A DNA stretch of 64,000 nucleotides from an uncultured Methanosarcinales archaeon (GCA_964645705.1 CAZYAB010000004.1:295-64294); one strand, 5' to 3'. Positions 19,934 to 59,867 are shown, counted from the stretch's first letter. Numbers and translations are program-made. Notes: generated from the sequence alone by a model not told the origin.

Positions 19934-20233
19934 TCAATAACTACTATGTATATGATGAGAAGCATGTGACAAGTGATGATTATGCACACCTTTTGCACCA
20001 ATTACTTTTTGTGTTTCAGGAGATACAGAATTTCTTACATCAAGAGCATTATCATGTATTGTATAATGTTGGTCTGACCAACCATCAGCTGAAACAGGTT
20101 TCACACTATGCAACAAAGACAAAGCAGCACCACCTAATACAGCTCCAGTCAAGATCATATTTTTCTTAGAAATCTTTCCTTCTTCTTCTAATAAGAACAA
20201 CTTCACCTTTTTTTTTATCTTAGGAAACTTCAT
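19934..20233 (-). CDS. Small His-rich secreted/membrane protein
   Basis: 99 aa. The N-terminus is Lys-rich and is followed by a hydrophobic segment (MILTGAVLGGAALSLL). The C-terminus is His-rich (KGVHNHHLSHASHHIHSSY). It lies between the rSAM gene and speH on the same strand. Confidence 0.45.
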   Translation of the reverse strand: MKFPKIKKKVKLFLLEEEGKISKKNMILTGAVLGGAALSLLHSVKPVSADGWSDQHYTIHDNALDVRNSVSPETQKVIGAKGVHNHHLSHASHHIHSSY

Positions 20234-20283
20234 CTATTCTATATAATATGTCTTATGTTTTAAATATTTTTCGTTTATTTTTA

Positions 20284-21669: not shown

Positions 21670-21694
21670 TTTAATATTATTTTCTAGCCCTTAT

Positions 21695-21734
21695 CTTACC
21701 AGGGGCGGGTGGTTGGGGGTGATGGGTGGTGGGG
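21695..21734 (+). repeat. G-rich motif copy B (cttaccaggggcgggtggttgggggtgatgggtggtgggg), intergenic just upstream of the minus-strand rSAM start
   Basis: Top-strand G-tracts (GGGG, GGG, GGGGG, GGG, GGGG) make it G-quadruplex-capable. It shares the cttacca…cagggg…gggggtRatgg…ggtggg pattern with copy A. Confidence 0.6.
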
Positions 21735-21750
21735 AATATTTATTTAATAT

Positions 21751-22011
21751 TTACACCTCATTTTTATCTTTCATCAACACAAAGATATAATTGCAAAGTT
21801 CTAGACATGTTTTTTCATAATCATCTACATCAACATTATCATTAAATATGATATTAATAACAAAATAATTAACATCGACAACAATCTCAAAATTGAAAAA
21901 ATCACTAAACTCCTTACAAGATTCACTGATAGAATCTCGACTATAAATGTCTTTATTTAACTCGATAATTGCTGATTTATTCTCTTTATTTATCTTTATC
22001 ATTTTCATCAT
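21751..22011 (-). CDS. Hypothetical small protein
   Basis: 86-aa ORF with no recognisable motif. It overlaps the next ORF by 26 nt. Confidence 0.3.
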   Translation of the reverse strand: MMKMIKINKENKSAIIELNKDIYSRDSISESCKEFSDFFNFEIVVDVNYFVINIIFNDNVDVDDYEKTCLELCNYIFVLMKDKNEV

Positions 22012-22354
22012 TAGTTTTATTAGTATTAGATATTAATTGCATGATAAAGTCGACAAACTCTTTTTTATCATTTAATTTATTCTTGTGAATATCATAAACA
22101 TTTAATTGAGAGACCACATCACTAGATAACAATTTCAAATCATCTTTATTTAATCTAATTTTAGGAATAAGAGTAATAATAAAACCACCTTGAATTATAT
22201 CCTTGTCTAATAATAAATAATTATCATCTGAAAAACCAAACAAAGCTGAAGAAATAGTATTTAGATCTAGATGAGATGAAGAATTTAGAATAATCTTATT
22301 ATTCTCATGATCAATTACAATATTTTCATTAGGTATTAAATTCATCATAACCAT
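21986..22354 (-). CDS. Hypothetical protein
   Basis: 122-aa ORF, co-directional with the downstream peptidase-like gene. No motif recognised. Confidence 0.35.
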   Translation of the reverse strand: MVMMNLIPNENIVIDHENNKIILNSSSHLDLNTISSALFGFSDDNYLLLDKDIIQGGFIITLIPKIRLNKDDLKLLSSDVVSQLNVYDIHKNKLNDKKEFVDFIMQLISNTNKTNDENDKDK

Positions 22355-39200: not shown

Positions 39201-40743
39201 TTTCTCCATCAGAACCAAATTCTATTGTATCAGAACCTTCATCAGAACCTTCAATCAAAGTTACATTATTTAAACCAGAATCTATTGAATAATCACAATC
39301 AACAGTTTCAGTAACATCAACATCTAATGAAATTGACTGAGTTGTTTTATAACCAGTAGTTGGTGTATTAATAGTAATCTCTGGATCTTCATCATCTATT
39401 GTAAATGTTATATCAGCTACTGCGATATTACCTGCTTCATCTAATGAAGTAACAGAGAAAAAAGGAAAATCTTCATCATCCAGAGTAATAATACCACTCC
39501 AATAATTAGTATCACCTTCTTTACTTAATACTTCTTCACTTTCTGTTGTAACAGAAAAAAGATTATCTTCAATTATACTAACATTCATTATAACTTGAGT
39601 TCCATCTTGTACATAGTCATCTGAAAAAGGTGTTGCTCCATCAAAAGTAATTACAGGAGATACATCATCAATTGTAAATGTAAGACTATCATCAGTATCA
39701 GTATTACCTGCAAGATCAGTTGCTACAATATTAAGAGGACTACTCAAGTCACTAAGAGTTAGACTAGCACTCCAATAATTAGTATCACCTTCTTTACTAA
39801 GATCTTCACCATCAGCAGTCACAGTATCAAGATTAGCATCAGTAACACTAACATTAAGAACAACACTATCATCTGTCTTAACAATATTATCTTCTAGATC
39901 AGGTGTACCAATTTCAGGATCAGCATCATCGATTGTAAATGTAAGACTATCATCAGTATCAGTATTACCTGCAAGATCAGTTGCTACAATATTAAGAGGA
40001 CTACTCAAGTCACTAAGAGTTAGACTAGCACTCCAATAATTAGTATCACCTTCTTTACTAAGATCTTCACCATCAGCAGTCACAGTATCAAGATTAGCAT
40101 CAGTAACACTAACATTAAGAACAACACTATCATCTGTCTTAACAATATTATCTTCTAGATCAGGTGTACCAATTTCAGGATCAACTTCATCATTAATACT
40201 ATTAATAGCTCCAGGTGTTCCATCTTCAGAAGTACTTTCAGCCCAATTATTATAATCAAAATTATATCTTTCAATAGAATAACCTTCAGCAGCCAAATCA
40301 GTGTAAGCTAATTCAGCAGTGATAGTTGTATTTGTTAGAGTAATTGTTTCACCAGTATTACTTAAACCTAAATCACACATTGCACCAGCATCAACACGGA
40401 AAGCCAATGCATCAGCATCAACTAAAAAAGCATCATAAACAGTTGTTCCAGGATCACCATCAGTAATAAGAGCATATCCTCCTGATTGTAAAACAAAATC
40501 ATTTTCAGAATAAACAACATCATCTGTATCATTGTAATAACCTGTCAGAAGATCATCACCACACAAAGTAAAATCAGACAGATTTAAATCATTAGGACCA
40601 GAATTATAAATCTCAATCCACTCTTCTGTAGCTTCAGTTACAGGATCATACATAACTTCACTTATGTACAAATCACCAACAACCAAACCACCACACATAA
40701 CCAAACTTAGAACTAATATAATTAAACTTATCACCTTTTTCAT
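33250..40743 (-). CDS. Giant (2497 aa) cell-surface protein: signal peptide, lamin-tail-like N-domain, many Ig/cadherin-like (NDAP-motif) repeats, CARDB-like C-terminal module, acidic linker and C-terminal TM anchor
   Basis: Signal peptide MKKVISLIILVLSLVMCGG. LYISEVMYDP is lamin-tail-domain-like. There are repeated xxVNDAPxL motifs and internal exact 87-aa tandem repeats. The C-terminal TM is ICGFVILLGVVIFMFMALI, followed by KKKRKY. Confidence 0.75.
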   Translation of the reverse strand: MKKVISLIILVLSLVMCGGLVVGDLYISEVMYDPVTEATEEWIEIYNSGPNDLNLSDFTLCGDDLLTGYYNDTDDVVYSENDFVLQSGGYALITDGDPGTTVYDAFLVDADALAFRVDAGAMCDLGLSNTGETITLTNTTITAELAYTDLAAEGYSIERYNFDYNNWAESTSEDGTPGAINSINDEVDPEIGTPDLEDNIVKTDDSVVLNVSVTDANLDTVTADGEDLSKEGDTNYWSASLTLSDLSSPLNIVATDLAGNTDTDDSLTFTIDDADPEIGTPDLEDNIVKTDDSVVLNVSVTDANLDTVTADGEDLSKEGDTNYWSASLTLSDLSSPLNIVATDLAGNTDTDDSLTFTIDDVSPVITFDGATPFSDDYVQDGTQVIMNVSIIEDNLFSVTTESEEVLSKEGDTNYWSGIITLDDEDFPFFSVTSLDEAGNIAVADITFTIDDEDPEITINTPTTGYKTTQSISLDVDVTETVDCDYSIDSGLNNVTLIEGSDEGSDTIEFGSDGEKTVDVYCVDRADNTDSESVTFTIDTIVPAVDNSQVESIIELGDDVEIRVDVVDNNLEDVFVIVDDYYYEMSLETGTTYLKTFSTSKDNRELGVEDYDISFFANDSAENVNDSITDSFEIEDSVEPVITNVLTPNVEYDADVELSADVSDESSIIAVYAVIDGEDYDMNDDETEGTFVVSISDFEIDDYDIQFIAMDQYGNMNNDETDTVVVEDTVAPSVENSVIEEITEWGESVDISVDVTDSPGSGVAKVYAIIEGVYYEMELDTGSTYAVSIPDLIYDEYTVTFYANDTEENVNNEVLDSFEVKDETIPSVAINTPTADEFLETNEVELSVTATETVDCEYSLDAGQTKVTLFEENTEGSLTIDLTEHSTTINFYCEDPSENLNDTESVSITMNSEPVFDTALENQEATEDEPFSYQISVSDDDEVDDLTVTPDIDVDATGLEFNSETNEFTWTPVNNQEGEYDVSVEVCDDSGMENDCETDSFTITVEAVNDAPELDENMEISIIEDISELVSLTENVSDVDDEKTDLTLTVDQETVDDEMLLDVSIDRLGDGFVLSFDLVEDANGQTTFDVTATDLDEASDTETITINIEAVHDSVVLAELDEVDVNESVAEEYDLESFITNVEEETLTIDVDADHLDYVSIDGYVLTLLYEDETKVQDLEDTITVNVTDSEGSVFQDLVVILVPINDAPVLGGLQDVEIDEDTTESFDLADLVSDEETADEDLEFSVIPNDYLDVSFDGTEATIEPVEDFNGVTSLVFVASDGEASDNDAIIVTVNAVSDDPYLPVLVSPGNGDTVNDTSVDLEWELEDDFEEGDPDGDDVTYYVYSRNDSVEEFTLLGTTTEFSFTAEFEDQQTHMWKVFVNDSDGNNAESTEFSFDVLYNVDPEITSTPGEEVLANRKYSYQVVAEDDGELDYYVGGPEEMEIDEEGLVEWTPSAEDIGLYDGITIEVCDDKDECDEQEFNLTVKHPLVVEFIKVNGVATEEEGIVEDVRPGDKLTFQFQLTNLFTDEELDIVDGGFGIDRLPVDSDTLALFNINLQPGATSDVETVEFDVPIDAEEDYYLFGIGFDTILDGDDNEYTLIDQGRQLSVERETHKILVDNVLLSEESVNSGENIALTFDLINLGVRDERNIQITAKNTELEINFSESLDLLEIDDSISYGDVFEISELVLDGTYPIDIRISYLNGDKETITTADIVVSHINLAPTIDPAIANITFSEDSLHVIDLTTYENDLEDSDTGLTWSVDGVDETLLASVDIVAATDLVTFTPIENKFGSDMVTFTLNDSKGLTESQNVLITVTEVDDTTIVSGRTPSESELIIGEEGTVDFSITAVDDDDDLIVSWDVDVVSQENTTIMWGHEESVEGNVYSYKFMPTYPATYEVTAMVVDGQSINESWTVIVADKPVAEENDIDFDDSEGIDKATDVEISKGSGNIDFGNQEIDLSDVLDVDSNVKIEDNLVALNTDNLPTLDKPATITMKSPGLDVPVVYYDDAFTTDPNIISKICNFCIIKSYDKTSGILVFEVEHFTSFTAKDQGTAFGMSLSELEIVFDGERGTQQTKEFLIQNTGTQTLEDVAVSITSVSGKNVTIKRGSESYSNYIDEFNIPASGSERIFVTSYIGARELISKTLAAAINISAKDVDETGLNVYQSPQSKLRITNLEIETDDDDYSVIDGDTIYDVRPDTNMDFNIEVKNLYEDDDNEDQEIKRIKIEVEIKKIAKDKKKDLDEKTSSFELDPTDYEEETLTFDLPLDINEGDYKVNVLVKGKDGYGIEHTVEWQLTLQIEKEDNDLRIIEAELDDSELSCDLTTYLDVEVKNYGQEEEEEVEIEVVSSELGISERYTSVPDLEEDVFDDDSEFKHSFFIKVPKGTDARTYPISVKVFYDEDEEDDDKIVNLIVKDCEPAKKDEDKKPTAQQDEIDRAKITAQLLEQYQTQKVDSFRIDDSLRMTLYICGFVILLGVVIFMFMALITSGKKKRKY
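39663..40183 (-). repeat. Perfect tandem duplication of a 261-bp unit (2 copies) inside the giant surface-protein gene
   Basis: Direct comparison of 39671-39922 with 39932-40183 shows identical DNA. It encodes two identical 87-aa Ig-like repeats (…IGTPDLEDNIVKTDDSVVLNVSVTDANLDTVTADGEDLSKEGDTNYWSASLTLSDLSSPLNIVATDLAGNTDTDDSLTFTIDD). Confidence 0.9.
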
Positions 40744-49134: not shown

Positions 49135-49845
49135 TTATTTTTTCAACACAAAATAAACACGACGATTTCCCTTCCCCTTATTACTAGACTTAAGAAATTC
49201 AATTACACCTATTTCTTTAACATTCTTTACTTGTGTTCCACCATCAGGTTGTTTATCTAGATTAGGTAAGTCTACAATACGTAATTGTTTGATTGCAGGT
49301 GGAAGCACAGAAGCTAATTTTACCATATTTGGATCATTCATACACTCTTCACGATCCATATAATAAATCTTCACATCATGATCACCAGAAATATATTCAT
49401 TAGACTTAACAATTGCTTGTTTCAACAATTCAGGATCATATTTCTCAATATTAAAATCAATCCTTGTCTGATCAATACCTATTTGGTTACCAGTGATCTT
49501 TGCACCATAATCTTTAAACAAAAACCCACACAAAACATGACAAGCAGTATGCATTCTCATCAATTTATGTCTACGATCCCAGTTCAATATACCTTTTACT
49601 TTATCTCCTACTTTTAAACCAGGCTTATCAATCTGTAAAGAAATATCATCGCCAAACTTCTTCGCATAAATTACATTATATTCAACATCACCACAGATTA
49701 ATTTACCTTCATCATGTGGTTGTCCACCTGATTCACCATAAAACAAAGTTTTATCTAATACAACAAACTTATCATCTTTTACAGAAACAACTTGTGCTTC
49801 AAATTCTTTTTCATATGAATTGTCTAGATAGAGTAATTTAGTCAT
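49135..49845 (-). CDS. alaX: AlaX-type aminoacyl-tRNA editing protein (AlaRS editing-domain homolog)
   Basis: The HTACHVL (HxxxH) zinc-binding motif plus a downstream Cys/His context and the ~236 aa size match AlaX-M-like trans-editing proteins. Confidence 0.6.
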   Translation of the reverse strand: MTKLLYLDNSYEKEFEAQVVSVKDDKFVVLDKTLFYGESGGQPHDEGKLICGDVEYNVIYAKKFGDDISLQIDKPGLKVGDKVKGILNWDRRHKLMRMHTACHVLCGFLFKDYGAKITGNQIGIDQTRIDFNIEKYDPELLKQAIVKSNEYISGDHDVKIYYMDREECMNDPNMVKLASVLPPAIKQLRIVDLPNLDKQPDGGTQVKNVKEIGVIEFLKSSNKGKGNRRVYFVLKK

Positions 49846-49851: not shown

Positions 49852-50337
49852 TCAACCCCTTATTATTTTTGGTATTTTATCAAATTCGTCGCGCTTAAAA
49901 AAATCAACAGATTTTTGAAGAACAACATATAAATTATTTAATGCATTAATTGGGTTTTTAACTAGATTAACCCAAGCATAATTTCCTCCATAAATAGATT
50001 TTTTAACGAGTTTTGAAAAATAATCATCTTCACCATCTTCTGAAAAATCTTGATTAAATTCTCTTTCAATAAACACATCCTCGAGTTTTGCAAATCTTTC
50101 AAATTTAGTTAGAGTCGCGTCTAAAGCATCTGAAGGATAAATATCTCTTTCAGTCAATGCCAATGCCTTTTTAACTAATCCCCCATCTATTTGATACATA
50201 ATTATAAAGAAAACATCATTGTATTTAACAATCAAATTATCATACTCTTCATCTTCACCACAAATTAATCTTATTGGTCCTTTTTGAACACTACACTTTG
50301 CTCTTTCTAACATATCAAAAAAATCTTTTGCATTCAT
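49852..50337 (-). CDS. Hypothetical protein
   Basis: 161-aa ORF. No motif recognised. Confidence 0.35.
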   Translation of the reverse strand: MNAKDFFDMLERAKCSVQKGPIRLICGEDEEYDNLIVKYNDVFFIIMYQIDGGLVKKALALTERDIYPSDALDATLTKFERFAKLEDVFIEREFNQDFSEDGEDDYFSKLVKKSIYGGNYAWVNLVKNPINALNNLYVVLQKSVDFFKRDEFDKIPKIIRG

Positions 50338-50381
50338 TTTTTATTATTTTACTGAAAATTAAATAAAATTTATAAGCCTTT

Positions 50382-51422
50382 CTATCTAAAAGGTGAACAA
50401 ATAGGCTCACCCTGAAAAAAATCTTTAAACTTTTCAAAAGCACTTGCTCTGCAACCGCCACAGATAAACTTATATGGACAAATTCCGCAAATTCCTTTTA
50501 ATGTTCTATTTCTCAACTTATTAAACAATCCAGAATTATTCCAAAGATCATAGAAATCTTTTTCATAAACATTCCCTACAATCAAAGAGGACTTATCACA
50601 AGGCAATAAATTACCTTTAGGATCAATACAACAAATAGAAATTCCAGCACTACAACCTGCTAATATTTTAGAAAGGTCTTTGTATTTATTATAAATCTTA
50701 TCAACCATTGGTTCAATAGTATTATACAAAGGATCTCTACATCTTATATTTATATTATTGGATCTATTAAACAATTCTAAAAAAATGCTTTTTAATAAAT
50801 TCTTAGGTATCAAAGTATAATCATAATCATGTTTAAATCCTACAGGCCTATCTATAATATACTCAAACACATTCAGAGAAATGCAAAGATCGCAAATTTT
50901 AGGCAATTCATGAATGTTTTGTGGCATTGCTTTTGTTTTTAATGCTAAAGTAATGTTGGTTTTTACTATTTTTTTTATTAAATCAATTATTTTATCATAT
51001 GAATTTGAACTATTTTTAATCAAATTATTGTGAGTGTCTTTTAACCCATTTAATTCAATTACCATTGCGTCTAACCCTATTTTATTCAATAAATCAACAT
51101 CTTCAAAAGTTAATAAAGTTGCATTTGTTTCAAGAATTGAAAGAATACCATGATCTTTAGCAAATTTTATTAATTTAAGAATATCTTTTTTATATATTAA
51201 AGGCTCACCGCCTGTAAAAACAATTCTATGAATTGTCTTAGGATTTAAGTTTTTAATAAAATCTTTTGCTTTTTCTAAACCAAAACATCCTTTTTCAAAA
51301 GAGTTTAATGAAAATTTATACTCTATATTATTTTCATTTGTGTACTTAAAAAAAAGATATTCTATTTTATTTGATTTAATCTTTGTTTCAAACATTGAAA
51401 AAACAGTAAGGATCTTCTTCAA
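50382..51422 (-). CDS. Radical SAM enzyme with SPASM domain (second of tandem pair)
   Basis: HRIVFTGGEPL is present. The C-terminal CGICPYKFICGGCRASAF is a SPASM-type motif. The N-terminus overlaps the upstream rSAM by ~35 nt, so the Cx3Cx2C motif may lie in the overlap or the start may be misplaced. Confidence 0.65.
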   Translation of the reverse strand: MKKILTVFSMFETKIKSNKIEYLFFKYTNENNIEYKFSLNSFEKGCFGLEKAKDFIKNLNPKTIHRIVFTGGEPLIYKKDILKLIKFAKDHGILSILETNATLLTFEDVDLLNKIGLDAMVIELNGLKDTHNNLIKNSSNSYDKIIDLIKKIVKTNITLALKTKAMPQNIHELPKICDLCISLNVFEYIIDRPVGFKHDYDYTLIPKNLLKSIFLELFNRSNNINIRCRDPLYNTIEPMVDKIYNKYKDLSKILAGCSAGISICCIDPKGNLLPCDKSSLIVGNVYEKDFYDLWNNSGLFNKLRNRTLKGICGICPYKFICGGCRASAFEKFKDFFQGEPICSPFR

Positions 51423-52413
51423 AAATGTCCCCTTTTAAAGAATAAGCCATAGCCCTACATCCTCCACACAAATTAATATATTTACAAAACTTACACTTTC
51501 CTTTTAAACAATCCCTTTTTCTCAATTTTTTGAACAAACTTGAATTATTCCAAATATCTGAAAAATAATCTTTTCTTATATTTCCTGCAAATTTTGGAAC
51601 AAATCCACACGGAGAAACATTTCCTTTATTATCAATATTACAAATAGAAATTCCTGCCAAACAACCACCTAAAATTTCATCATTTAATTTATCTTTGTAT
51701 TTATTTTCAATTTTTTCTTTGTATAAATAAGGAATTATTACGGGATCTCTGCTCATCATTTTAATTCCTTTTTTTTGTGCATAAACCCAAGCTTTATCAA
51801 CAACTTCTTTATATTCCTCAGGCGCAACTAATAATTCTTTTTTATTAACTTTCATCTTACCAGCAGGAATATATCTTTTTAATGCAAACTCTTCAACACC
51901 TAACTCTTTTGTCAAATCAACCAAATATTTGTATTGATCCATGTTCCATTTCATAACAGTTAATTTAATTGTAACTTTTAAACCTTCATCAACTAAATAT
52001 TTAATCGCATTAATTGCCTTTTCAAAAGTACCTTTTTTTCCCCTAATCTTATCGTGTATTTCTTCATTTCCATCTAAACTAATTACTATTCCCCCTAAAT
52101 TTACTTTTTTCAATTTTTTTGCTATGTCTGAAGTTATCAAAGTACCATTAGAAGGCATATAAGTATTAATGCCTAATTCATGAGTATATTCTAATAAATC
52201 AAAAATTCCTTTTTTCAATAAAGGTTCTCCACCTGAAAAAACTATTCTTTCTGGTTTAAATCCTGAAATCTCTTTGATTACATCCCTTATTTCATTTATT
52301 GTTAGCTCATTTTTATCTTCAACACTGATTGAACCACAGTGCTTGCAATTTAAATTACATTTAGAAGTTAAATCTATTGAAACTAAAAGTAAAGGAAAAT
52401 CATCAGATTTCAT
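51388..52413 (-). CDS. Radical SAM enzyme with SPASM domain (first of tandem pair)
   Basis: SIDLTSKCNLNCKHCGS (Cx3Cx2C) and FSGGEPLL are present. The C-terminal CKFCKYINLCGGCRAMAYS is a SPASM-type motif. Confidence 0.8.
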   Translation of the reverse strand: MKSDDFPLLLVSIDLTSKCNLNCKHCGSISVEDKNELTINEIRDVIKEISGFKPERIVFSGGEPLLKKGIFDLLEYTHELGINTYMPSNGTLITSDIAKKLKKVNLGGIVISLDGNEEIHDKIRGKKGTFEKAINAIKYLVDEGLKVTIKLTVMKWNMDQYKYLVDLTKELGVEEFALKRYIPAGKMKVNKKELLVAPEEYKEVVDKAWVYAQKKGIKMMSRDPVIIPYLYKEKIENKYKDKLNDEILGGCLAGISICNIDNKGNVSPCGFVPKFAGNIRKDYFSDIWNNSSLFKKLRKRDCLKGKCKFCKYINLCGGCRAMAYSLKGDIFEEDPYCFFNV

Positions 52414-52439
52414 TATTCAATTCTCCGTATTCAAAATAC

Positions 52440-52577
52440 TTAATTGACACTAACGTGACAGCTAAATTCATTAGCAATTATCTTTTTCCTTTGAATAGGC
52501 ATTTGTAAAACAACAGTTTTAGAAGCATTCCCAGATAATTGTTTTTCCTTAGCTGTTATTTTTATGTCTTTTTTCAT
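52440..52577 (-). CDS. Unannotated 45-aa peptide; candidate precursor/substrate peptide for the downstream rSAM-SPASM pair
   Basis: My manual reverse-complement translation gives MKKDIKITAKEKQLSGNASKTVVLQMPIQRKKIIANEFSCHVSVN. A GGTGA Shine-Dalgarno-like sequence lies 6 nt upstream of the ATG. The stop is 27 nt before the first rSAM start. It has a single Cys near the C-terminus. Confidence 0.4.
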   Translation of the reverse strand: MKKDIKITAKEKQLSGNASKTVVLQMPIQRKKIIANEFSCHVSVN

Positions 52578-52662
52578 GATTCATCACCTAATAATCAAGA
52601 TAAAACACTGTTTTAAAAGGATTTCCGCCTACATTTTGCAAATCTTCCGAATAAAGAAATAA

Positions 52663-55104
52663 CTAAATCTCTATACCCAACTCAACAGGATAATTATTAC
52701 AAGCAATGCTCACTTCTTGATCAAACACAATTGCATCAGCATGCGTTACAGCCTTAATATCTTCAATAACTTTCATCAAAGCTTCTCTGTGTTCTTGTTT
52801 TTCGCATTTAATCACTAACTTCTTAAGAGAGGCTTTCAAAGATAGTTTATTATCAGACTTAAACTTACGCACAGTGCTGATTACATCAAGTGCAACATCA
52901 CCTGATAATTCTGCACCTTCATCTATCATAGATTCATCAACATTTGGCCATTTTGTTAAATGAATACTTTCTATTTTGATCTTATCTTTAAAATATGATT
53001 GATAAACATATTCAGTAATATAAGGCGTAAATGGTGAATAAAGTTTAAGAACATTTAACAAAACAGAGTACAAAGTAAATTGTGCACTTTTTCTTTCTTC
53101 AACACCGCGAGAATCAGGATTATAAAGACGGTCTTTTACAATTTCTAAATAATTATCACAAAATACTTGCCAAAAAAGTTTATCTGTTTCTAATCTTGGT
53201 CTAGAAAATCTAAATTTGTCCATTCTTTCTGTTGAAAATTTAATTAGTCTATTAAGTTTAGACAAAATCCATTTATCAAAAACCAGTAATTCTGGTTTGG
53301 ATAAATCATAATCCTGCAAATGTATAAAACAAAACTTAGAAGCATTGAATAATTTAGTAATAGTCTTTTTACCAGCAACAACATCTTTCTCAGGAAATGG
53401 CAAATCTTCACCTAATTTACAACCGCCTGCCATAAAACGAAGCGCATCTGCAGAATATTTATTGATCATGACTTGAGGTTCAATAACATTACCTTTTGAT
53501 TTAGACATTTTTTTCCCTTTTGGATCAAGCATCCAACCATTGATAAAACAATGATTCCATGGTTTAAGATTAAAATGTAACTTACTTTTTATAACAGTAT
53601 TAAATAACCAAAAAGTTATAATGTCATGACCTTGTGGCCTTAGATTCATAGGATTTTTTCTAAGTTTTTCATAAATTGCATGATCTTTGAATAATTCAAT
53701 TACCAATGTTGGTGTCAAAGAACTAGTAGCCCATGTGTTTATTATATCTTTTTCACCAATAAATTCAGAACAACCGCACTTAGGACACTTATCAACAGGT
53801 GGTTTATCCTCTAGAGGATCAACAGGAAGATCTTCTTCTTTAGCTAATATAACTTCATCACATTTTTTACAATACCAAACAGGAAAAGGAATGCCAAAAG
53901 GTAATTGTCGAGAAATACACCAATCCCATTGCAAACCATTTACCCAATTATCATATCTATTTTTCATGTGCTTAGGATGCCATCCTAATTCATTTCCCCA
54001 AGCAACCATCTTATCTTTAAGATCAAGATATTTTATAAACCACTGCTTAGAATGAATAAACTCAACAGTTGTGCCACATCTTTCATGCACATTAACAAAA
54101 TGTTTTATTGGTTTTTGCCCTTTAAGCAGATCTTTGTTCTTAAGATCTTTAATAATTTCTTTTCTAGCATTTTCAATTTTCATGCCTTTATATTTTCCAG
54201 AGATTTCAGTCATCAAACCATTATTATTAATTGCTTCTTTAATAGGTAGTTTATGTGCTTTTTGCCATTCCATGTCGGCTTGATCACCAAAAGTACAACA
54301 CATAACAATGCCTGTTCCTTTTTCAGGATCAGCTCTATGATCTTCTAAAATAGGAACTTCAAAATCAAACAAAGGAACTTTTGCTTTTTTGTCTTTAAGA
54401 TTTTGGTAACGTTTATCATCAGGATGGAAAAAGATTGCAACACAAGCTGGCAGCAACTCTGGTCTAGTTGTTGCGATTATTAATTCTTTATTACCTACTT
54501 TAAACACAATATCATTAAAATGAGAACTTATTTCCTTGTCTTCACATTCAACTTGAGCAATAGCTGTTCTACATTTAGGACAAAATATAGCAGGGGCTTC
54601 TGCTCTATATTCTCTACCCATTTTATACAAATCAATAAAAGATTTTTGAGAGATTCTTTGACAATGAGGATCAATAGTAGAATAATTAACACTAAAATCA
54701 CAACTAATTCCTAAACGTCTCCAGTCATTTGTATAACTTGGTTTTAATTCATTATTCAAAGTATCTAAACACAATTTTCTAAATTCTTTTCTACCTAAAT
54801 CCTCTGCTCTTACTTTTTTCAAGTTTTCAATAAGCAATTTTGTTGGTAAACCATTATCATCTGTTCCAAATGGTTGTAAAACACTAAATCCTTTCATTCT
54901 TTTATATCTAGCAATGAAATCTTGTTGACTATTACCAAAAGCATGACCTAGATGCATCTTCCCACTAACAGTAGGAGGAGGTGTATCTATTACAAACAAG
55001 GGTTTTTTAGAATCAGGATCAAATTTATAGATTTGATTATCTTCCCAGAATTTCAATATTTTTGGTTCTTCCACTTGCGGATCATATTTCTTAGCCAGTT
55101 CCAT
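52663..55104 (-). CDS. valS: Valyl-tRNA synthetase (class I aaRS)
   Basis: PPPTVSGKMHLGHAFG is a HIGH-like motif in the ValRS-type PPPxxSG context. KMSKSKGN is present. Zn-binding CxxC pairs lie in the editing/CP region. Length is 813 aa. Confidence 0.7.
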   Translation of the reverse strand: MELAKKYDPQVEEPKILKFWEDNQIYKFDPDSKKPLFVIDTPPPTVSGKMHLGHAFGNSQQDFIARYKRMKGFSVLQPFGTDDNGLPTKLLIENLKKVRAEDLGRKEFRKLCLDTLNNELKPSYTNDWRRLGISCDFSVNYSTIDPHCQRISQKSFIDLYKMGREYRAEAPAIFCPKCRTAIAQVECEDKEISSHFNDIVFKVGNKELIIATTRPELLPACVAIFFHPDDKRYQNLKDKKAKVPLFDFEVPILEDHRADPEKGTGIVMCCTFGDQADMEWQKAHKLPIKEAINNNGLMTEISGKYKGMKIENARKEIIKDLKNKDLLKGQKPIKHFVNVHERCGTTVEFIHSKQWFIKYLDLKDKMVAWGNELGWHPKHMKNRYDNWVNGLQWDWCISRQLPFGIPFPVWYCKKCDEVILAKEEDLPVDPLEDKPPVDKCPKCGCSEFIGEKDIINTWATSSLTPTLVIELFKDHAIYEKLRKNPMNLRPQGHDIITFWLFNTVIKSKLHFNLKPWNHCFINGWMLDPKGKKMSKSKGNVIEPQVMINKYSADALRFMAGGCKLGEDLPFPEKDVVAGKKTITKLFNASKFCFIHLQDYDLSKPELLVFDKWILSKLNRLIKFSTERMDKFRFSRPRLETDKLFWQVFCDNYLEIVKDRLYNPDSRGVEERKSAQFTLYSVLLNVLKLYSPFTPYITEYVYQSYFKDKIKIESIHLTKWPNVDESMIDEGAELSGDVALDVISTVRKFKSDNKLSLKASLKKLVIKCEKQEHREALMKVIEDIKAVTHADAIVFDQEVSIACNNYPVELGIEI

Positions 55105-55180: not shown

Positions 55181-56485
55181 TCAAGCAGCTTTAACTAATT
55201 TTCTTTTTTCAAGCATATCATTAAATATATAAACAATCATACCAAGATTTTCATGCTTTACACCAGAAAGTTTTAAAGTTTCTTGGTCAATTGGTTTTTC
55301 CTTGCTCCACAAACTTGCAATTATTTTCAAATATTTTCCTTCAACTCCTTCCTTCTTCAACAAACCCATCGGAGATTTTGATTTTTTCTTTCTTTGTTTA
55401 TGAACAGCTTCCTCTTCAGCAGTTTCAATAAATTCACCCTCAATAGTTAAACCACTAAAGATTATTCTTTTCTTATTTTCTAATTTATTAAATAAAGATT
55501 TCAGATTAAAAGCACTAATTTGTCTTTCTTTTGCAAAAGTTAAATTTGTTTTTAAATCAGCAGGAACAATCATAGTATCGCTTACAAAGACGTAATCAGG
55601 CACACACAAACCCTGCGCTCTTTTATTTGCAGCTTTTTTAAAACTGTTATCTTCGTCTAAAGGGATCATAATACCATTTTCACCTATTTCTGCAGAGATT
55701 TTTTTTGTGAGATTATTTATTTCATCTCTTTGCATTTCTTCAAATAATTCTTGAATTTTCTCTTCAAATTTACTACCTATAAAAGTGCTAAAAGGGTTAA
55801 AGCTAGTGCTCCTACAAAAAGCTGTTAAATTATTAAATTCAGACCTGAAAAAAATATTAGGTGACTTTTCTTTGATTATCTTTTTAGCAAATTTAAAAAG
55901 AGCATAAATATTCATCTTAATATTCTTTTTTGCAGCGAGTTCTATAAACCTGTTTAAAAGGGAACGAAGATTTCTTTTTATATAACTTGCATGACCCCTT
56001 TTATACAAAGGATTTATTTTTTCAAGAAAATTTATTTTTTTATAATAAACATAATAAGAAGCACCCAAAAAATAAGAAATCTTTGCACCAATTTTAAATT
56101 TTTCATAATTCAACCGATCAAAACCTTCAAAGATCTGAAAAAAATCTCTTACAGTATGATAAAGAACTTTATAATCTCTTTTAAAAATGTCAATAATAGA
56201 CATACTAGTAAGAATTTTCGGAAAATGTTTTTGTCTATTTATATAATCATCAGGACAAATAAAGAATCCATCATGATAACTCAAATTAATCATAGAACCA
56301 TCATCTACTTTTAAGTATTTAAGGAGTTTCTTATTATCCCTTTTAAAATGATCCCAAGTCAAAATAAACATATTATAATATTTTAAAAAAAAGATATATA
56401 TAAAACTTTCTATAATATGTAAATCAATAAAAAATGAACTAGAAAACAATAATCTTAATAAATCCTTAAATATTCCTTGAATCAT
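55181..56485 (-). CDS. Hypothetical protein (434 aa)
   Basis: Long ORF with no recognisable motif. The Lys-rich C-terminal region includes a KKKSKSP stretch. Confidence 0.4.
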   Translation of the reverse strand: MIQGIFKDLLRLLFSSSFFIDLHIIESFIYIFFLKYYNMFILTWDHFKRDNKKLLKYLKVDDGSMINLSYHDGFFICPDDYINRQKHFPKILTSMSIIDIFKRDYKVLYHTVRDFFQIFEGFDRLNYEKFKIGAKISYFLGASYYVYYKKINFLEKINPLYKRGHASYIKRNLRSLLNRFIELAAKKNIKMNIYALFKFAKKIIKEKSPNIFFRSEFNNLTAFCRSTSFNPFSTFIGSKFEEKIQELFEEMQRDEINNLTKKISAEIGENGIMIPLDEDNSFKKAANKRAQGLCVPDYVFVSDTMIVPADLKTNLTFAKERQISAFNLKSLFNKLENKKRIIFSGLTIEGEFIETAEEEAVHKQRKKKSKSPMGLLKKEGVEGKYLKIIASLWSKEKPIDQETLKLSGVKHENLGMIVYIFNDMLEKRKLVKAA

Positions 56486-57755: not shown

Positions 57756-59867
57756 ATGAAAAAAAGATTGATGGTTTTAATAATAGTTTTAATATTTCTG
57801 TTTAGTTTGAACTTTTGTTTAGGAATAATAAGGTCAGAAGACAATATTAAAGAAGAATATAATTTAGGCGATGTTATTGAAACTAGCGGGGATATTTTTA
57901 GTACAAAAGATAGCAATGTAGATTTTAAAATTAAAATAATTTGTTCTGATCAGGAAACATTACTTATGATAAAAAAGATGTATCTTAAGAAGAATACACT
58001 ACAAAAATTTGAGGAAAATCTATTCATACCTTATTTTTCAGAAGAAATTTGTAAATTGAAATACGAGCTTTTTGAAAATAATAATAAAATTGAGGAAAAA
58101 GAATCAAAAGAATTAAAAATAGTAAAAAAATTAAATACTCGTGTAATATTAGAAAATGAATTAATCCAATTAGGGGAAACAATATTATTAAAGGGTGAAG
58201 CTAAAAAATTAAATGATGAAAAGATCAATGGAAATGCTCTAATTTCTATTAAAAAAGATAATGAAAATTATTTAATAGTGAATTCAGAAATAAACAAAGG
58301 AGTTATCGAAAAAGAAATAGGTCCTATTTTAATTCCGAATGGAGATTATTTTTTAACGATAAATATAAGAGACGTTCACGGAAATGAAGGAAAAGTTGAA
58401 AATTTACCATTTAAAGTATTGACTAAAATAGAATTAGAAACAAAAATAAATAAAATAAACTTTGTTCCTGGTGAAAAAATAAAAATAACAGGAAGCATAA
58501 CTAATTTAAAAGAAATATCTGATGAATTTGAGCTTAGAATTAATCTTAATGATCAAAACCAGGAAAAAATCATTCCAGCAGAATTTGAACAAGAATTTAA
58601 GATACAAGAAAACACAAAATCACTCATAAATAAATTAATTATTAAAGTATTTGATAATTATGGTAATGTTGGTGAAGACATACATGAAATAAACATAATT
58701 CCACAAGTAAAAGAAATAAAGATGGATACAGATAAAAAAGAGTATGAAATAGACAACACAATAAATATTAACATAAGCTTGATCGACCAAGCAAATGATA
58801 TAATTAATGATGATGTGAAGTTAATAATCAAAAATAATTTATTTACAATTGATGAAATGAGGGTTAATACTAAAGAAACTATCAAATACAAGGTTAAAGA
58901 TGGGTTAGATGGTGAAGAAATAAGAATAATAACTGAATATAATGACTTAAAAAATGAAAAAGAGATACAAATATTAGAAACAGATACAACAAATAAAGAA
59001 AAAGATTACATAACTGGAAATTTTGCAAAAGAGCTAGGAAAAAATCTTAGCAAATTAGGATATGTTATGGGTGCTTTGATATTATTAGTTATACTGGTTT
59101 TTGTTTTATCACACTCTAAATTAAAAAAAGACGTAAAACACATGTTTAAGAAAAAACATGAAAAACATGAAAAAGTAAAAAAACAACTTCAAAATAAAAT
59201 TAAAAAAAAACACAAAGAAAAAAAACAACTAGAAAAAACATTCCATACATATATTGACCCAGTCATTGCAAAAAGATTAGTTCAAGAAAAAGGGAGTAAA
59301 GAAGGAATTAAAAAAAACATTACTGTTTTATTTGCAGACATGAGAGGTTTTACTAGATTGTCTGAAAACACAGATCCTGAAAAAGTAGTTGATAAATTAA
59401 ATTTATTTCACAAAGCAGTTTCAGACTCAATAAAAATGTATAATGGAATTGTTGATCAAATAGTAGGTGATGAAGTTTTTGCATTATTCAATGTGGTTAA
59501 AGAAGATGGCAACCACGCATTAAACGCAGCAAAAGCTGCAATAAAAGTAAGAAGCAAAATAAATGAAATAAACAAAAAATTAAAAAAAGAAAACAAAAAA
59601 CTAATAAAAGTAGGCATAGGTGTAAATTCCGGTGAAGTAATGTTAGGCAACATAGGGTCTGATAATATGTTAAGATATACTGCTATAGGCAATACAGTTA
59701 ATCTTGGTTCAAGACTACAAAGCAAAGCAAAACATAATCAAATACTGATTACAGAGGAAACATACAAAATTCTAAAAAAAGATATAGAAGTTGAAGATTT
59801 GGGTTATATGAATTTTAAAAATATCAGTAAACAAGTCAGTGTGTATAATGTTATTGGGTTAAAGTAA
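57756..59867 (+). CDS. Membrane-anchored class III adenylate/guanylate cyclase with N-terminal extracytoplasmic domain
   Basis: Signal/TM at the N-terminus and a ~400-aa extracellular region. A TM helix (GYVMGALILLVILVFVLS) and a Lys-rich linker follow. The cyclase homology domain runs ITVLFADMRGFTRL…VGDEVFALFN…KVGIGVNSGEVMLGNIGS…YTAIGNTVNLGSRLQS. Confidence 0.75.
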   Translation: MKKRLMVLIIVLIFLFSLNFCLGIIRSEDNIKEEYNLGDVIETSGDIFSTKDSNVDFKIKIICSDQETLLMIKKMYLKKNTLQKFEENLFIPYFSEEICKLKYELFENNNKIEEKESKELKIVKKLNTRVILENELIQLGETILLKGEAKKLNDEKINGNALISIKKDNENYLIVNSEINKGVIEKEIGPILIPNGDYFLTINIRDVHGNEGKVENLPFKVLTKIELETKINKINFVPGEKIKITGSITNLKEISDEFELRINLNDQNQEKIIPAEFEQEFKIQENTKSLINKLIIKVFDNYGNVGEDIHEINIIPQVKEIKMDTDKKEYEIDNTININISLIDQANDIINDDVKLIIKNNLFTIDEMRVNTKETIKYKVKDGLDGEEIRIITEYNDLKNEKEIQILETDTTNKEKDYITGNFAKELGKNLSKLGYVMGALILLVILVFVLSHSKLKKDVKHMFKKKHEKHEKVKKQLQNKIKKKHKEKKQLEKTFHTYIDPVIAKRLVQEKGSKEGIKKNITVLFADMRGFTRLSENTDPEKVVDKLNLFHKAVSDSIKMYNGIVDQIVGDEVFALFNVVKEDGNHALNAAKAAIKVRSKINEINKKLKKENKKLIKVGIGVNSGEVMLGNIGSDNMLRYTAIGNTVNLGSRLQSKAKHNQILITEETYKILKKDIEVEDLGYMNFKNISKQVSVYNVIGLK

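What the first reader, a model, noticed from the sequence alone, without database searches (positions are those of the whole stretch)
50382..52662. Unannotated 45-aa peptide with its own SD immediately upstream of two tandem rSAM-SPASM genes: candidate RiPP-like maturation system
The two radical SAM/SPASM genes (51388-52413 and 50382-51422, minus strand) overlap each other and are preceded, 27 nt upstream, by a short ORF missed by the 60-aa ORF cut-off. It encodes MKKDIKITAKEKQLSGNASKTVVLQMPIQRKKIIANEFSCHVSVN. GGTGA sits 6 nt before its ATG. A short peptide with a Lys-rich leader-like N-terminus and a C-terminal Cys-containing core (EFSCHVSVN) followed by paired SPASM rSAMs is the classic layout of sactipeptide/ranthipeptide-type or other rSAM-modified peptide systems. 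Such systems are essentially uncharacterised in DPANN-like archaea.
Basis: partly seen in the sequence, partly recalled or inferred. Interest (0 to 1): 0.7.

Follow-up and report, generated by a model that had tools for sequence, protein, structure and literature searches.

The report
Peptide-modifying enzyme cassette with dead partner
A small DPANN archaeon carries a lineage-specific three-gene cassette (a 45-residue peptide, an active radical SAM enzyme and its catalytically dead duplicate) that most likely makes a cross-linked peptide, although no chemistry has been shown.

Summary
The 45-aa ORF (52440-52577, minus) with GGTGA 6 nt upstream is real, but public ENA and JGI gene calls already include it. 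The second "rSAM" (50382-51395) has lost all three CxxxCxxC cysteines. It keeps a full SPASM domain, models as an intact fold (pLDDT 88), and is a tandem duplicate of gene 1.

Peptide + rSAM + pseudo-rSAM form a 2.3-kb unit that is absent between ValRS and the next gene in the two closest Woesearchaeota-type relatives.

Both enzymes score highest against AhbD/NirJ2 models but far below cut-off. They lack the AhbD AuxI ligand C223, which leaves the seven-Cys scheme of thioether-forming maturases (CteB/PapB). No heme genes occur in the 64 kb.

The peptide has no detectable sequence homologue. However, four of the six related loci examined carry a short upstream ORF of like design. Three of them, like the window peptide, contain [ED][FW]x1-4C. 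One locus adds a weak PqqD-like protein, and one has the two enzyme modules fused.

Best reading: an RRE-less, ranthipeptide-like RiPP system with a dead paralogue as obligate partner (confidence 0.58). It is a new variant of a known kind. No chemistry is shown.

The parts
50338..52662 (-). Whole lineage-specific cassette (promoter region + peptide + rSAM + pseudo-rSAM), lying between the ValRS stop and the start of the 161-aa backbone gene
   Evidence: In the closest relatives L088 (ValRS 89% identical) and L066 (83%), ValRS is followed within about 33 nt by the homologue of the 161-aa gene. In L088 the ValRS stop overlaps that gene's ATG. GC is 0.22-0.28, against 0.28-0.33 in the flanks.
52611..52618 (-). 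TATA-like element TTTTAAAA about 37 nt upstream of the peptide ATG (candidate archaeal promoter; inferred only)
   Evidence: Read directly from the sequence. A comparable TTTAAAATA lies about 25-30 nt upstream of the L179 peptide ORF. Not tested.
52584..52588 (-). Shine-Dalgarno core GGTGA, 6 nt before the peptide ATG
   Evidence: The background frequency of GGTGA is 1.5% per 20-mer.
52440..52577 (-). 45-aa candidate precursor peptide with a Lys-rich N-terminal part and the C-terminal core ANEFSCHVSVN (single Cys40)
   Evidence: No sequence homologue was found in 5.8 billion clusters.
52458..52469 (-). Codons for E37-F38-S39-C40, an instance of the recurring motif [ED][FW]x1-4C
   Evidence: The motif is also present in the upstream peptides of L179, L005 and L176. 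It occurs in 2.1% of 284 spurious small ORFs. It was defined post hoc.
52427..52439 (-). Small hairpin-capable sequence GTATT-TTG-AATAC directly after the peptide stop (possible attenuator; weak)
   Evidence: Read from the sequence. Not tested.
51388..52413 (-). rSAM1: an active-type radical SAM/SPASM enzyme of 341 aa. It has C19/C23/C26 (CNLNCKHC), the GGEP motif, and SPASM cysteines C251, C269, C307, C310, C316, C319 and C337. It has no N-terminal RRE or lipid-binding domain.
   Evidence: Pfam Radical_SAM + SPASM. NCBIfam best hit is AhbD at 270 bits against a cut-off of 500. Cysteine map. Nearest relative is P0002 at 43%.
50382..51395 (-). Pseudo-rSAM/SPASM of 337 aa, a tandem paralogue of rSAM1. 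N22/Y26/S29 stand in place of the SAM-cluster cysteines. All seven SPASM cysteines are kept (C248, C266, C303, C306, C312, C315, C333), and there is an extra C219 next to the lost AuxI-ligand position.
   Evidence: DNA repeats at a constant offset of about 1010 nt to gene 1. AF2 pLDDT 88.2 and pTM 0.89. Foldseek top hits are SuiB, PqqE, SkfB and CteB. dN/dS is 0.38 in the SPASM part and 0.8 in the N-terminal part.
51388..51395 (-). 8-nt overlap ATGTTTGA between the rSAM1 stop and the pseudo-rSAM start (translational coupling)
   Evidence: gene calls 7019 and 7026 in L001.

Best explanation
This is a minimal, horizontally acquired RiPP-like cassette in a Woesearchaeota-type DPANN archaeon.

Proposed mechanism:
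1. One transcript starts upstream of the 45-aa ORF and encodes the precursor peptide, rSAM1 and, by translational coupling, its dead paralogue.
2. rSAM1 cleaves SAM at its CNLNCKHC cluster.
3. Its AuxI cluster has only three Cys ligands, as in CteB, PapB and Tte1186, so it binds the thiolate of the peptide's single Cys40.
4. The 5'-deoxyadenosyl radical abstracts an H atom from a nearby residue of the conserved E-F-S-C core, most simply Glu37 or Phe38.
5. One intramolecular cross-link forms, most likely a thioether (-2 Da).
6. The pseudo-rSAM cannot bind or cleave SAM at a cluster but keeps two auxiliary [4Fe-4S] sites. It acts as an obligate partner of rSAM1. It either returns the electron from the auxiliary clusters to the SAM cluster, an intermolecular step shown to be needed in PapB, or it holds the peptide in place of the missing RRE, or both.

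Shown: the gene anatomy, the loss of the cluster motif, the tandem-duplication origin, the cassette indel, the relatives' contexts and the cysteine pattern.

Inferred: that the peptide is the substrate, the type of cross-link, complex formation and the role of the dead paralogue.
For: 1. The ORF is unlikely to be chance: P about 0.001-0.004 with the SD, and its codon score lies within the gene range.

2. Peptide + rSAM1 + pseudo-rSAM are present or absent as one unit. L088 and L066 have ValRS directly followed by the 161-aa gene.

3. Relatives have the same layout:
- P0002 (43%, the closest): a 34/37-aa ORF MKKMEKEKIEPKEKATKEEKLEVVKDWICGGSCFPNC with SD AAGGAGGTGA lies 43 nt upstream. The pair is bracketed by attC-like repeats and has different upstream neighbours in two assemblies.
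- P0017 (38%): 37-aa ORF, then a PqqD-like protein, then two overlapping rSAM/SPASM genes, beside an integrase.
- P0241: a 29-aa ORF MKKNKKSSKVEKKILTPKEFVELSCMCDN lies 76 nt upstream of a fused double rSAM/SPASM, in a GC-30% contig whose CysRS fragment is 48% identical to the window's.
- P0184, P0149, P0163 and P0220: a conserved 31-40-aa precursor family (...GLLMCMTDAEVNDI...) with three tandem rSAM/SPASM genes; an ABC transporter is seen in the P0149 loci L013-L016.

4. The motif [ED][FW]x1-4C is in all four peptides and in 2.1% of spurious ORFs.

5. Every canonical AhbD in the alignment keeps the C223-equivalent Cys. All ten members of this branch aligned lack it; the first module of the fused P0241 retains a Cys at that position (HCDP). 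The remaining spacing C-x17-C-x37-C-x2-C-x5-C-x2-C-x17-C matches CteB/PapB/Tte1186, whose three-Cys AC1 binds the substrate Cys (PMC10452713; PMC10177961).

6. The pseudo-rSAM is maintained:
- It is a 337-codon open frame in a 29%-GC genome.
- It gives a confident full fold.
- The SPASM half has dN/dS 0.38 and 52% identity to rSAM1, against 15% identity in the N-terminal 55 residues.
- It overlaps gene 1 by 8 nt.

7. Fused and paired modules recur in the branch.

8. PapB needs intermolecular electron transfer via AC2 to re-reduce its SAM cluster (PMC10470005).

9. The same window holds an independent peptide-maturase system: HxsB at 425 bits (cut-off 370) next to a His-Xaa-Ser repeat protein.
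Against: - The peptide has no sequence homologue. BLASTP against the L179 peptide is not significant (E = 0.27).
- The shared motif was defined after seeing the sequences.
- The related loci are short metagenomic contigs of unknown taxonomy.
- Two clade members (P0006, P0063) show no upstream peptide in the sequence available.
- No RRE/PqqD, protease or exporter is in the cassette.
- The best HMM hits are tetrapyrrole enzymes (AhbD, NirJ2), and PapB/SCIFF models score far lower.
- rSAM1 has an extra Cys258 that might complete AuxI.
- The peptide is strongly basic and has only one Cys.
- dS is near saturation, so dN/dS is rough.
- There are no expression or chemical data.
Confidence: 0.58

Rival explanations
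1. The pair modifies a cofactor or small molecule. rSAM1, with its dead paralogue, acts on a non-peptide substrate such as a scavenged tetrapyrrole (AhbD/NirJ-like decarboxylation) or another metabolite. The 45-codon ORF is then incidental or is a separate small protein.
For: - The top NCBIfam hits for both proteins are AhbD and NirJ2, and most database relatives are named heme b synthase.
- No RRE, protease or exporter is present.
- A haloarchaeal pseudo-SAM/SPASM family (TIGR04347) exists within the tetrapyrrole-type group and is hit at 95-185 bits.
- The same genome uses another AhbD/NirJ2-like rSAM/SPASM inside a fatty-acyl/polyamine-type operon with no obvious peptide.
- The peptide has no homologue.
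Against: - Scores are about half the equivalog cut-offs or less (270 and 150 against 500).
- The AuxI ligand C223, conserved in the AhbDs compared here, is missing.
- No ahbA/B/C, siroheme or heme-protein genes are in the 64 kb.
- The nearest relatives sit behind short Cys-containing ORFs, once with a weak PqqD-like protein.
- The ORF statistics disfavour chance.
Confidence: 0.2
2. The pair modifies lipids. It is a Gms-like enzyme (GMGT synthase type) acting on host-derived archaeal lipids.
For: - Gms is an AhbD homologue at 36% identity and is found in some DPANN genomes (PMC11214058, PMC11186832).
- Many 470-490-aa hits look Gms-like.
Against: - The defining N-terminal COG4001 lipid-binding domain of about 100 aa, and the length above 400 aa, are absent. 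rSAM1 starts 18 residues before its cluster motif.
- No lipid genes adjoin the cassette.
Confidence: 0.04
3. The cassette is decaying or only partly functional. It was acquired as two active rSAMs (as in L176), and the second is now an inert remnant. The system may be inactive, or gene 1 may work alone.
For: - All three cluster cysteines are lost.
- The N-terminal 55 residues are only 15% identical to the paralogue and have dN/dS about 0.8.
- No orthologous pseudo-rSAM family was found by exhaustive search.
- The cassette occurs in a single species-level lineage.
Against: - The 337-codon frame is intact despite dN of about 0.65 from its paralogue, in a genome where about 8% of random codons are stops.
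- All seven SPASM cysteines are retained, and dN/dS there is 0.38.
- The AF2 fold is confident.
- The 8-nt coupling overlap is retained.
- A second, independent cluster-less relative (P0302) exists.
Confidence: 0.1
4. The small ORF encodes an unrelated small basic protein or a regulatory leader peptide and is not the enzymes' substrate.
For: - The peptide is very Lys-rich and basic and has a single Cys.
- It has no homologue.
- No RRE is present to recognise a leader.
Against: - It arrived or is lost together with the enzymes.
- Analogous ORFs with the same core motif precede relatives.
Confidence: 0.08

Closest known systems
Ranthipeptide/sactipeptide-type rSAM/SPASM maturases with minimal two-gene systems (PapB/PapA, CteB/CteA, Tte1186 with its SCIFF peptide)
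   Same: - A short Cys-containing precursor lies directly upstream of an rSAM/SPASM enzyme.
- The seven-Cys SPASM spacing implies a three-Cys AuxI that can bind the substrate thiolate (PMC10177961).
- An acidic residue lies 3-4 positions from the Cys.
- No protease or exporter is needed in SCIFF-type systems (the SCIFF point is from my own knowledge).
   Different: - There is no N-terminal RRE domain.
- The family models score far below cut-off (PapB 86 against 340).
- The acidic residue precedes the Cys, whereas PapB links a Cys to a downstream Asp or Glu (PMC9413430).
- There is only one Cys.
- A catalytically dead paralogue is part of the unit.
- The host is archaeal (DPANN).
AhbD / NirJ2 (heme b synthase and heme d1 radical SAM enzymes)
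   Same: - They are the highest-scoring curated models (270 and 244 bits) and show 35-39% identity.
- The length and domain order are the same.
- Two auxiliary cluster sites are present.
   Different: - Scores are about half the cut-off or less.
- The C223 AuxI ligand is lost, and there are two shared deletions.
- No tetrapyrrole genes are nearby.
- A peptide ORF comes with the genes.
- The second copy has no SAM cluster.
TIGR04347 pseudo-SAM/SPASM proteins of haloarchaea, and the GeoRSP system (rSAM/SPASM + PqqD chaperone + SPASM-only protein)
   Same: - These are precedents for an rSAM/SPASM-like protein that has lost the SAM-cluster cysteines and occurs with active relatives. The family names and descriptions come from NCBIfam; the system composition is partly from my own knowledge.
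- The L176 PqqD-like protein weakly hits the GeoRSP PqqD model.
   Different: - Scores are far below cut-off (95 against 525 for gene 2).
- The window's pseudo-enzyme is a recent tandem duplicate of its own neighbour, not a member of those families.
Gms (GMGT synthase), an AhbD-like archaeal lipid cross-linking rSAM/SPASM enzyme
   Same: It belongs to the AhbD-like SPASM group, occurs in archaea including some DPANN, and has three clusters (PMC11214058, PMC11186832).
   Different: The window proteins lack the defining N-terminal COG4001 domain, are shorter (341 against more than 400 aa), and have no lipid-gene context.
PqqE/PqqD/PqqA and MftC/MftB/MftA (peptide-derived cofactor systems)
   Same: - An rSAM/SPASM enzyme acts on a small peptide without an export step.
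- PqqE is among the nearest solved structures.
   Different: - Those systems require a separate PqqD-type chaperone and further tailoring enzymes, none of which is in the cassette.
- Model scores are below cut-off.

Membership tests
AhbD, heme b synthase (TIGR04545) | Whole-protein score at or above the curated equivalog cut-off (500 bits) | tested here: not met
   rSAM1 scores 270.1 bits and gene 2 scores 150.1 bits.
AhbD, heme b synthase (TIGR04545) | Full eight-Cys SPASM motif including the AuxI ligand equivalent to M. barkeri C223 (methanogen/SRB type, PMC10452713) | tested here: not met
   R222 in rSAM1 and R220 in gene 2 stand at that column. All five bona fide AhbDs in the alignment have Cys there.
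AhbD, heme b synthase (TIGR04545) | Genomic association with the siroheme-dependent pathway (ahbA/B/C) or with heme proteins | tested here: inconclusive
   None was found among the 40 of 44 ORFs of >=110 aa in the 64-kb window that were scanned with Pfam. The rest of the genome was not available.
Radical SAM superfamily (active enzyme) | CxxxCxxC motif binding the SAM-cleaving [4Fe-4S] cluster | tested here: met
   rSAM1 has C19-x3-C23-x2-C26. Gene 2 fails this feature (N22, Y26, S29).
SPASM-domain proteins (PF13186 / TIGR04085) | C-terminal seven-Cys motif for two auxiliary clusters | tested here: met
   Both proteins pass the Pfam SPASM model (30.2 and 34.0 bits against 21.5). All seven Cys are aligned in both.
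Thioether-forming RiPP maturases (PapB NF047865, SCIFF maturase TIGR03974, CteB type) | Family model score at cut-off | tested here: not met
   PapB model: 85.7 bits against 340 for rSAM1. SCIFF maturase model: 44.9 bits against 425 for gene 2.
Thioether-forming RiPP maturases (PapB NF047865, SCIFF maturase TIGR03974, CteB type) | AuxI ligated by three Cys, leaving an open Fe for the substrate Cys | tested here: inconclusive
   The spacing matches CteB/PapB and the fourth AhbD ligand is absent (PMC10177961). However, rSAM1 has an extra Cys258, and no structure or spectroscopy is available.
Thioether-forming RiPP maturases (PapB NF047865, SCIFF maturase TIGR03974, CteB type) | RiPP recognition element (a PqqD-like domain, fused or separate) | tested here: not met
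   No Pfam or NCBIfam PqqD/RRE hit occurs in any cassette protein, and rSAM1 has no N-terminal extension. A related locus, L176, does have a 92-aa PqqD-like protein.
Thioether-forming RiPP maturases (PapB NF047865, SCIFF maturase TIGR03974, CteB type) | Adjacent short precursor peptide with Cys in its C-terminal core | tested here: met
   The 45-aa ORF lies 26 nt upstream and has Cys40. Analogous ORFs lie upstream of P0002, P0017 and P0241.
Thioether-forming RiPP maturases (PapB NF047865, SCIFF maturase TIGR03974, CteB type) | Demonstrated post-translational cross-link on the peptide | not testable with these tools
   This needs co-expression and mass spectrometry.
Gms, GMGT synthase | N-terminal COG4001 lipid-binding domain of about 100 aa, and length above 400 aa (PMC11214058) | tested here: not met
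   rSAM1 is 341 aa and its cluster motif starts at residue 19. Gene 2 is 337 aa.
TIGR04347 pseudo-SAM/SPASM (haloarchaeal) | Score at cut-off (525), together with loss of the SAM-cluster Cys | tested here: not met
   Gene 2 scores 94.6 bits. It shares only the loss of the motif.

The most novel reading that the evidence does not exclude
The cassette would be the founding example of an obligately heteromeric RiPP maturase: an active rSAM/SPASM subunit paired with a paralogue that has given up SAM cleavage. The paralogue keeps both auxiliary clusters and serves as a built-in electron-return and/or leader-binding subunit. This would replace both the RRE and an external redox partner in a genome-reduced DPANN archaeon. 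Together with the relatives found here, it would define a new AhbD-derived precursor/maturase family marked by an [ED][FW]x1-4C core.
Probability: 0.25. Interest if true: 0.75.

Novelty: new variant of a known kind. Interest (0 to 1): 0.6.

Why it matters
If the reading is right, three things follow.

1. A branch of the "heme b synthase-like" radical SAM enzymes, routinely auto-annotated as AhbD, actually matures small peptides. Many database labels would then be wrong.

2. DPANN archaea, which have tiny genomes and depend on hosts, invest in modified peptides. This window carries two such candidate systems. That points to peptide-mediated interaction with hosts or competitors.

3. A catalytically dead radical SAM paralogue kept for its auxiliary iron-sulfur clusters would give a natural test of the recent proposal, from work on PapB, that these enzymes need intermolecular electron transfer through the second auxiliary cluster. 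It would also show how an enzyme can work without a leader-recognition domain.

Tried and rejected
1. Peptide homologue search in 5.8 billion clusters found only the peptide itself. BLASTP of the window peptide against the L179 peptide was not significant.

2. The 161-aa downstream protein and AlaX were considered as parts of the system and rejected. Both are present next to ValRS in relatives that lack the cassette.

3. The metagenome-contig scan with a clade alignment first failed for lack of a conserved stretch. It did not return the window's own contig, so it was not informative.

4. The L010 240-aa neighbour was tested as a second pseudo-rSAM and is unrelated.

5. One-to-one orthology between the two modules of the fused P0241 and the window's two genes is not supported. 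Pairing arose repeatedly.

6. A foreign-composition signature for the cassette was looked for. It is only marginally more AT-rich than its flanks. No flanking direct repeats or attC-like sites were found in the window.

7. The attC reading of the repeats around the L005 cassette has the right architecture, but the fold z-scores are weak (best -2.06). It is kept only as supportive evidence.

8. Rfam found nothing in the intergenic region at gathering threshold.

9. The Gms (lipid) reading was rejected because the N-terminal domain is missing.

10. The exhaustive phmmer search for a family of orthologous pseudo-rSAMs found none. Most hits lacking the motif are N-terminally truncated gene calls. 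P0302 is one independent case.
Full report
**Observation**

The window (GC 28.8%) holds a run of genes on the minus strand, listed here in order of transcription:
- ValRS (52663-55104);
- an 85-nt spacer;
- a 45-codon ORF (52440-52577);
- a 26-nt spacer;
- a 341-aa gene (51388-52413);
- a second gene that overlaps it;
- a 161-aa gene of unknown function (49852-50337);
- an AlaX-like gene (49135-49845).

An in-frame TGA 6 nt upstream fixes the start.

The ORF is not unannotated. ENA and JGI gene calls on all four contigs shown list it as a 45-aa gene, and it is in the protein collection as P0240. Those calls start the second enzyme gene at the ATG at 51395. That gives 337 aa and an 8-nt overlap (ATGTTTGA) with the stop of gene 1.

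**Is the ORF more than chance?**

- A sense-strand ATG ORF of at least 45 codons in 249 nt of this composition has P = 0.016-0.039. With a correctly placed SD core, P = 0.001-0.0035.
- Only 8 of 41 genes here have any SD core, and GGTGA occurs in 1.5% of random 20-mers.
- A codon model trained on the window's genes gives the ORF 0.32 per codon. Real genes score 0.41 ± 0.15 and spurious ORFs of similar length score -0.04 ± 0.25. 8.7% of the spurious ORFs score as high.

The ORF is probably a real gene, but these tests were made after the ORF had been picked out.

**What the two enzymes are**

Gene 1 (rSAM1, P0001) has Pfam Radical_SAM and SPASM domains and the motif CNLNCKHC.

Gene 2 (P0121) matches the Radical_SAM profile only from position 31 onward. 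N22, Y26 and S29 stand where the three cluster cysteines should be, yet all seven SPASM cysteines are kept. It is a pseudo-radical-SAM protein.

Gene 2 is a tandem duplicate of gene 1:
- Its best match among all retrieved proteins is its own neighbour, at 36%.
- The SPASM-coding parts of the two genes still share 71-85% DNA identity at a constant offset of about 1010 nt.

Identity to rSAM1 varies by region: 15% in residues 1-55, 38% in 56-120, 24% in 121-245, and 52% in the SPASM domain. dN/dS is about 0.8 in the N-terminal part and 0.38 in the SPASM part, with dS near 1.1, so the values are rough.

An AlphaFold2 model of gene 2 is confident (pLDDT 88.2, pTM 0.89). It superposes on SuiB, PqqE, SkfB, CteB and anSME at TM 0.66-0.76. 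The dead copy is therefore a folded protein under constraint in its auxiliary-cluster domain, not debris.

**Organism and cassette boundaries**

A scan of species-representative genomes with ValRS returned Woesearchaeota-, Nanoarchaeota- and Altiarchaeota-labelled MAGs. The closest are L088 (89% identity) and L066 (83%).

In both, ValRS is followed within about 33 nt by the homologue of the 161-aa gene, and in L088 AlaX then follows at 89% identity. In L088 the ValRS stop overlaps that gene's ATG. So the peptide, rSAM1 and the pseudo-rSAM (50338-52662, 2.3 kb) are one insertion or deletion unit. The 161-aa protein and AlaX belong to the backbone. The cassette's GC (0.22-0.28) barely differs from the host's.

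Neither enzyme has a relative above 43% (rSAM1) or 36% (pseudo-rSAM) identity among 5.8 billion clusters, or in an exhaustive phmmer search of 1.84 billion representatives. The cassette is therefore confined, as far as sampled, to one species-level lineage.

**Known cofactor enzyme or not?**

AhbD and NirJ2 are the best curated models, but at 270 and 244 bits (rSAM1) and 150 and 171 bits (gene 2), against cut-offs of 500.

In an alignment with bona fide AhbDs, the window pair and its nearest relatives share two deletions and the motif xxDP in place of ATCAP. That Cys is C223 of *M. barkeri* AhbD, proposed as the fourth ligand of AuxI (PMC10452713). All ten members of this branch aligned lack it, and no substitute Cys is conserved across the branch.

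What remains in rSAM1 is C251-x17-C269-x37-C307-x2-C310-x5-C316-x2-C319-x17-C337. This is the same scheme as in CteB, PapB and Tte1186. In those enzymes AC1 has three Cys ligands, and X-ray absorption data place the substrate's (seleno)cysteine on its open iron (PMC10177961).

Pfam found no tetrapyrrole or heme gene among the 40 of 44 ORFs of at least 110 aa in the 64 kb that were scanned.

Gms, the archaeal GMGT lipid synthase, is also an AhbD homologue. It is defined by an N-terminal COG4001 domain of about 100 aa and a length above 400 aa (PMC11214058, PMC11186832). rSAM1 starts 18 residues before its cluster motif, so it fails that test.

**Do relatives have a peptide?**

The window peptide has no sequence homologue. 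Its closest enzyme relatives, however, repeat the layout.

- **P0002** (43%, the nearest; L005/L006) has a 34/37-aa ORF, MKKMEKEKIEPKEKATKEEKLEVVKDWICGGSCFPNC, behind the SD AAGGAGGTGA and 43 nt upstream. This two-gene unit is bracketed by 65-85-nt repeats with attC-like inverted cores (GCCTAAC...GTTAGGC). It has different upstream neighbours in two assemblies, as a mobile cassette would. The hairpin z-scores are weak.
- **P0017** (38%; L176) lies in the order integrase, 37-aa ORF (MKTNEKKLNWKLSVEDFEKAACYRDHGDYRPTYPKKR), 92-aa protein with faint/weak PqqD-family hits, rSAM/SPASM, overlapping rSAM/SPASM.
- **P0241**, the top phmmer hit of the pseudo-rSAM, is a 663-aa fusion of two rSAM/SPASM modules. 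It is preceded at 76 nt by the 29-aa ORF MKKNKKSSKVEKKILTPKEFVELSCMCDN. Its contig has 30% GC, and its CysRS fragment is 48% identical to the window's.
- **A more distant sub-branch** (P0184, P0149, P0163, P0220) has a clearly conserved 31-40-aa precursor family (...GLLMCMTDAEVNDI...) in front of three tandem rSAM/SPASM genes; further rSAM genes follow in L011 and L013-L016, and an ABC transporter is seen only in the P0149 loci L013-L016.
- **L010** (P0192) has only an 18-aa SD-preceded ORF, MEQEKIEIIEENVCMNCGT.
- **P0006 and P0063** show nothing convincing in the short upstream sequence available.

The window, L179, L005 and L176 peptides all contain [ED][FW]x1-4C near the C-terminus. Only 2.1% of 284 spurious small ORFs from the same sequences contain it, and composition-preserving shuffles give P = 0.007-0.12 per peptide. 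I defined the motif after seeing the sequences. If two peptides define it and two test it, P is still about 4×10^-4. Standard alignment does not show the peptides to be homologous (E = 0.27).

**Mechanism proposed**

The steps below are inferred unless marked otherwise.

1. A TATA-like TTTTAAAA (52611-52618) and the SD suggest that one transcript begins just upstream of the peptide.
2. rSAM1 is the catalyst. Its three-Cys AuxI binds Cys40, SAM cleavage abstracts an H atom from a neighbouring residue of the E37-F38-S39-C40 core, and one cross-link forms.
3. The most likely product is a thioether of the ranthipeptide kind. PapB links Cys to Asp or Glu over 0-6 intervening residues, although there the acid lies downstream of the Cys (PMC9413430). 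An aromatic C-C cross-link is an alternative chemistry that I cannot exclude.
4. The pseudo-rSAM is translationally coupled to rSAM1 and keeps two cluster sites. Fused and paired modules recur in this branch without one-to-one orthology, which argues that two modules work together.
5. In PapB, the electron left on an auxiliary cluster after thioether formation returns to the SAM cluster only by intermolecular transfer through AC2 (PMC10470005). A cluster-only paralogue could supply exactly that transfer. Alternatively, or in addition, it could hold the peptide, since the cassette has no RRE.
6. The pseudo-rSAM has a Cys (C219) one residue before the lost AuxI-ligand position, which might close its AuxI. 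This is speculation.

**Rivals**

- A cofactor or small-molecule role (0.20) rests on the AhbD/NirJ2 hit ranking, the missing RRE, the existence of a haloarchaeal pseudo-SAM/SPASM family, and a second AhbD-like rSAM/SPASM in this window that sits in a fatty-acyl/polyamine-type operon.
- A decaying cassette (0.10) is countered by the intact frame, the retained cysteines and the SPASM constraint.
- An unrelated small protein (0.08) and a Gms-like lipid role (0.04) are less likely.

**Novelty and verdict**

Radical SAM/SPASM peptide maturases with short upstream precursors are a well-known kind. The new elements here are:
- the AhbD-derived branch with its own precursor design;
- the absence of an RRE;
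- the pairing with a catalytically dead paralogue;
- the DPANN host.

I file it as a new variant of a known kind, with interest 0.6 and confidence 0.58 in the stated mechanism. Nothing about the chemistry has been shown.

Noticed in passing
window 19934-22354 (minus strand): This is a second peptide-maturase system. The 461-aa rSAM at 20284-21669 passes the NCBIfam equivalog cut-off for HxsB (425 bits against 370). The 99-aa ORF just downstream (19934-20233) has an N-terminal hydrophobic segment and ends in ...HNHHLSHASHHIHSSY, which is a run of His-Xaa-Ser repeats. ORFs of 86 and 122 aa with unknown function and a Peptidase_A24 gene lie upstream. No HxsC was seen.
   Followed up: partly
window 9565-19883: A biosynthetic-looking operon in a DPANN genome. 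In order it has: rSAM/SPASM, BpsA-like polyamine synthase, CoA-transferase III, FabH-like, FabG-like SDR, AMP-ligase, a second AhbD/NirJ2-like rSAM/SPASM (29% to rSAM1), AMP-ligase, MaoC dehydratase and flavodoxin-like FMN reductase. AdoMet decarboxylase is on the opposite strand. With the other three, that makes five rSAM-type genes in 64 kb.
   Followed up: partly
window 49852-50337 (minus): The 161-aa backbone protein has no Pfam or NCBIfam hit. It is only 28-30% identical to its positional orthologues in L088 and L066, while the flanking ValRS and AlaX are 83-89% identical. It is a very fast-evolving gene wedged between conserved translation genes.
   Followed up: no
window 55181-56485 (minus): A 434-aa ORF without any Pfam hit lies between RFC and ValRS. 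It is absent in the closest relative L088, where RFC and ValRS are 109 nt apart. This is a second lineage-specific insertion, next to the cassette.
   Followed up: no
L005 398-485 and 1770-1835; L006 158-246: The nearest homologue's peptide + rSAM pair is bounded by repeats of about 65-85 nt with attC-like cores (GCCTAAC...GTTAGGC; GGATATGTG/CACATATCC). It has different upstream neighbours in two assemblies, and in L006 a new small membrane-protein ORF follows. This suggests an integron-type gene cassette. The fold z-scores are weak.
   Followed up: partly
L011, L013-L016, L177, L178: A conserved multi-rSAM cluster of unknown product. It has a 31-40-aa precursor with the core (K/E)GLL(M/L)CMTDAE(V/I)xD, a protein of 266-313 aa with an HPEE motif, three tandem rSAM/SPASM genes interrupted by a TPR-like protein of 138-190 aa; L011 and L013-L016 add a B12-type rSAM of about 650 aa, and L013-L016 an ABC transporter.
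   Followed up: partly
L179/L180 and L181: AT-rich contigs (GC 0.30) share the theme rSAM/SPASM, Amidohydro_2, rSAM/SPASM, with a TPR protein in L179/L180. L179/L180 have a fused double rSAM/SPASM (P0241). L181 has P0302, a full-length relative in which the SAM-cluster loop is deleted. P0302 is a second, independent pseudo-rSAM.
   Followed up: partly
window 2537-9505 and 33250-40743 (minus): Two giant ORFs of 2322 and 2497 aa, which I recall as common in DPANN/CPR genomes. They were not examined. An adenylate/guanylate cyclase-domain protein lies at 57756-59867.
   Followed up: no
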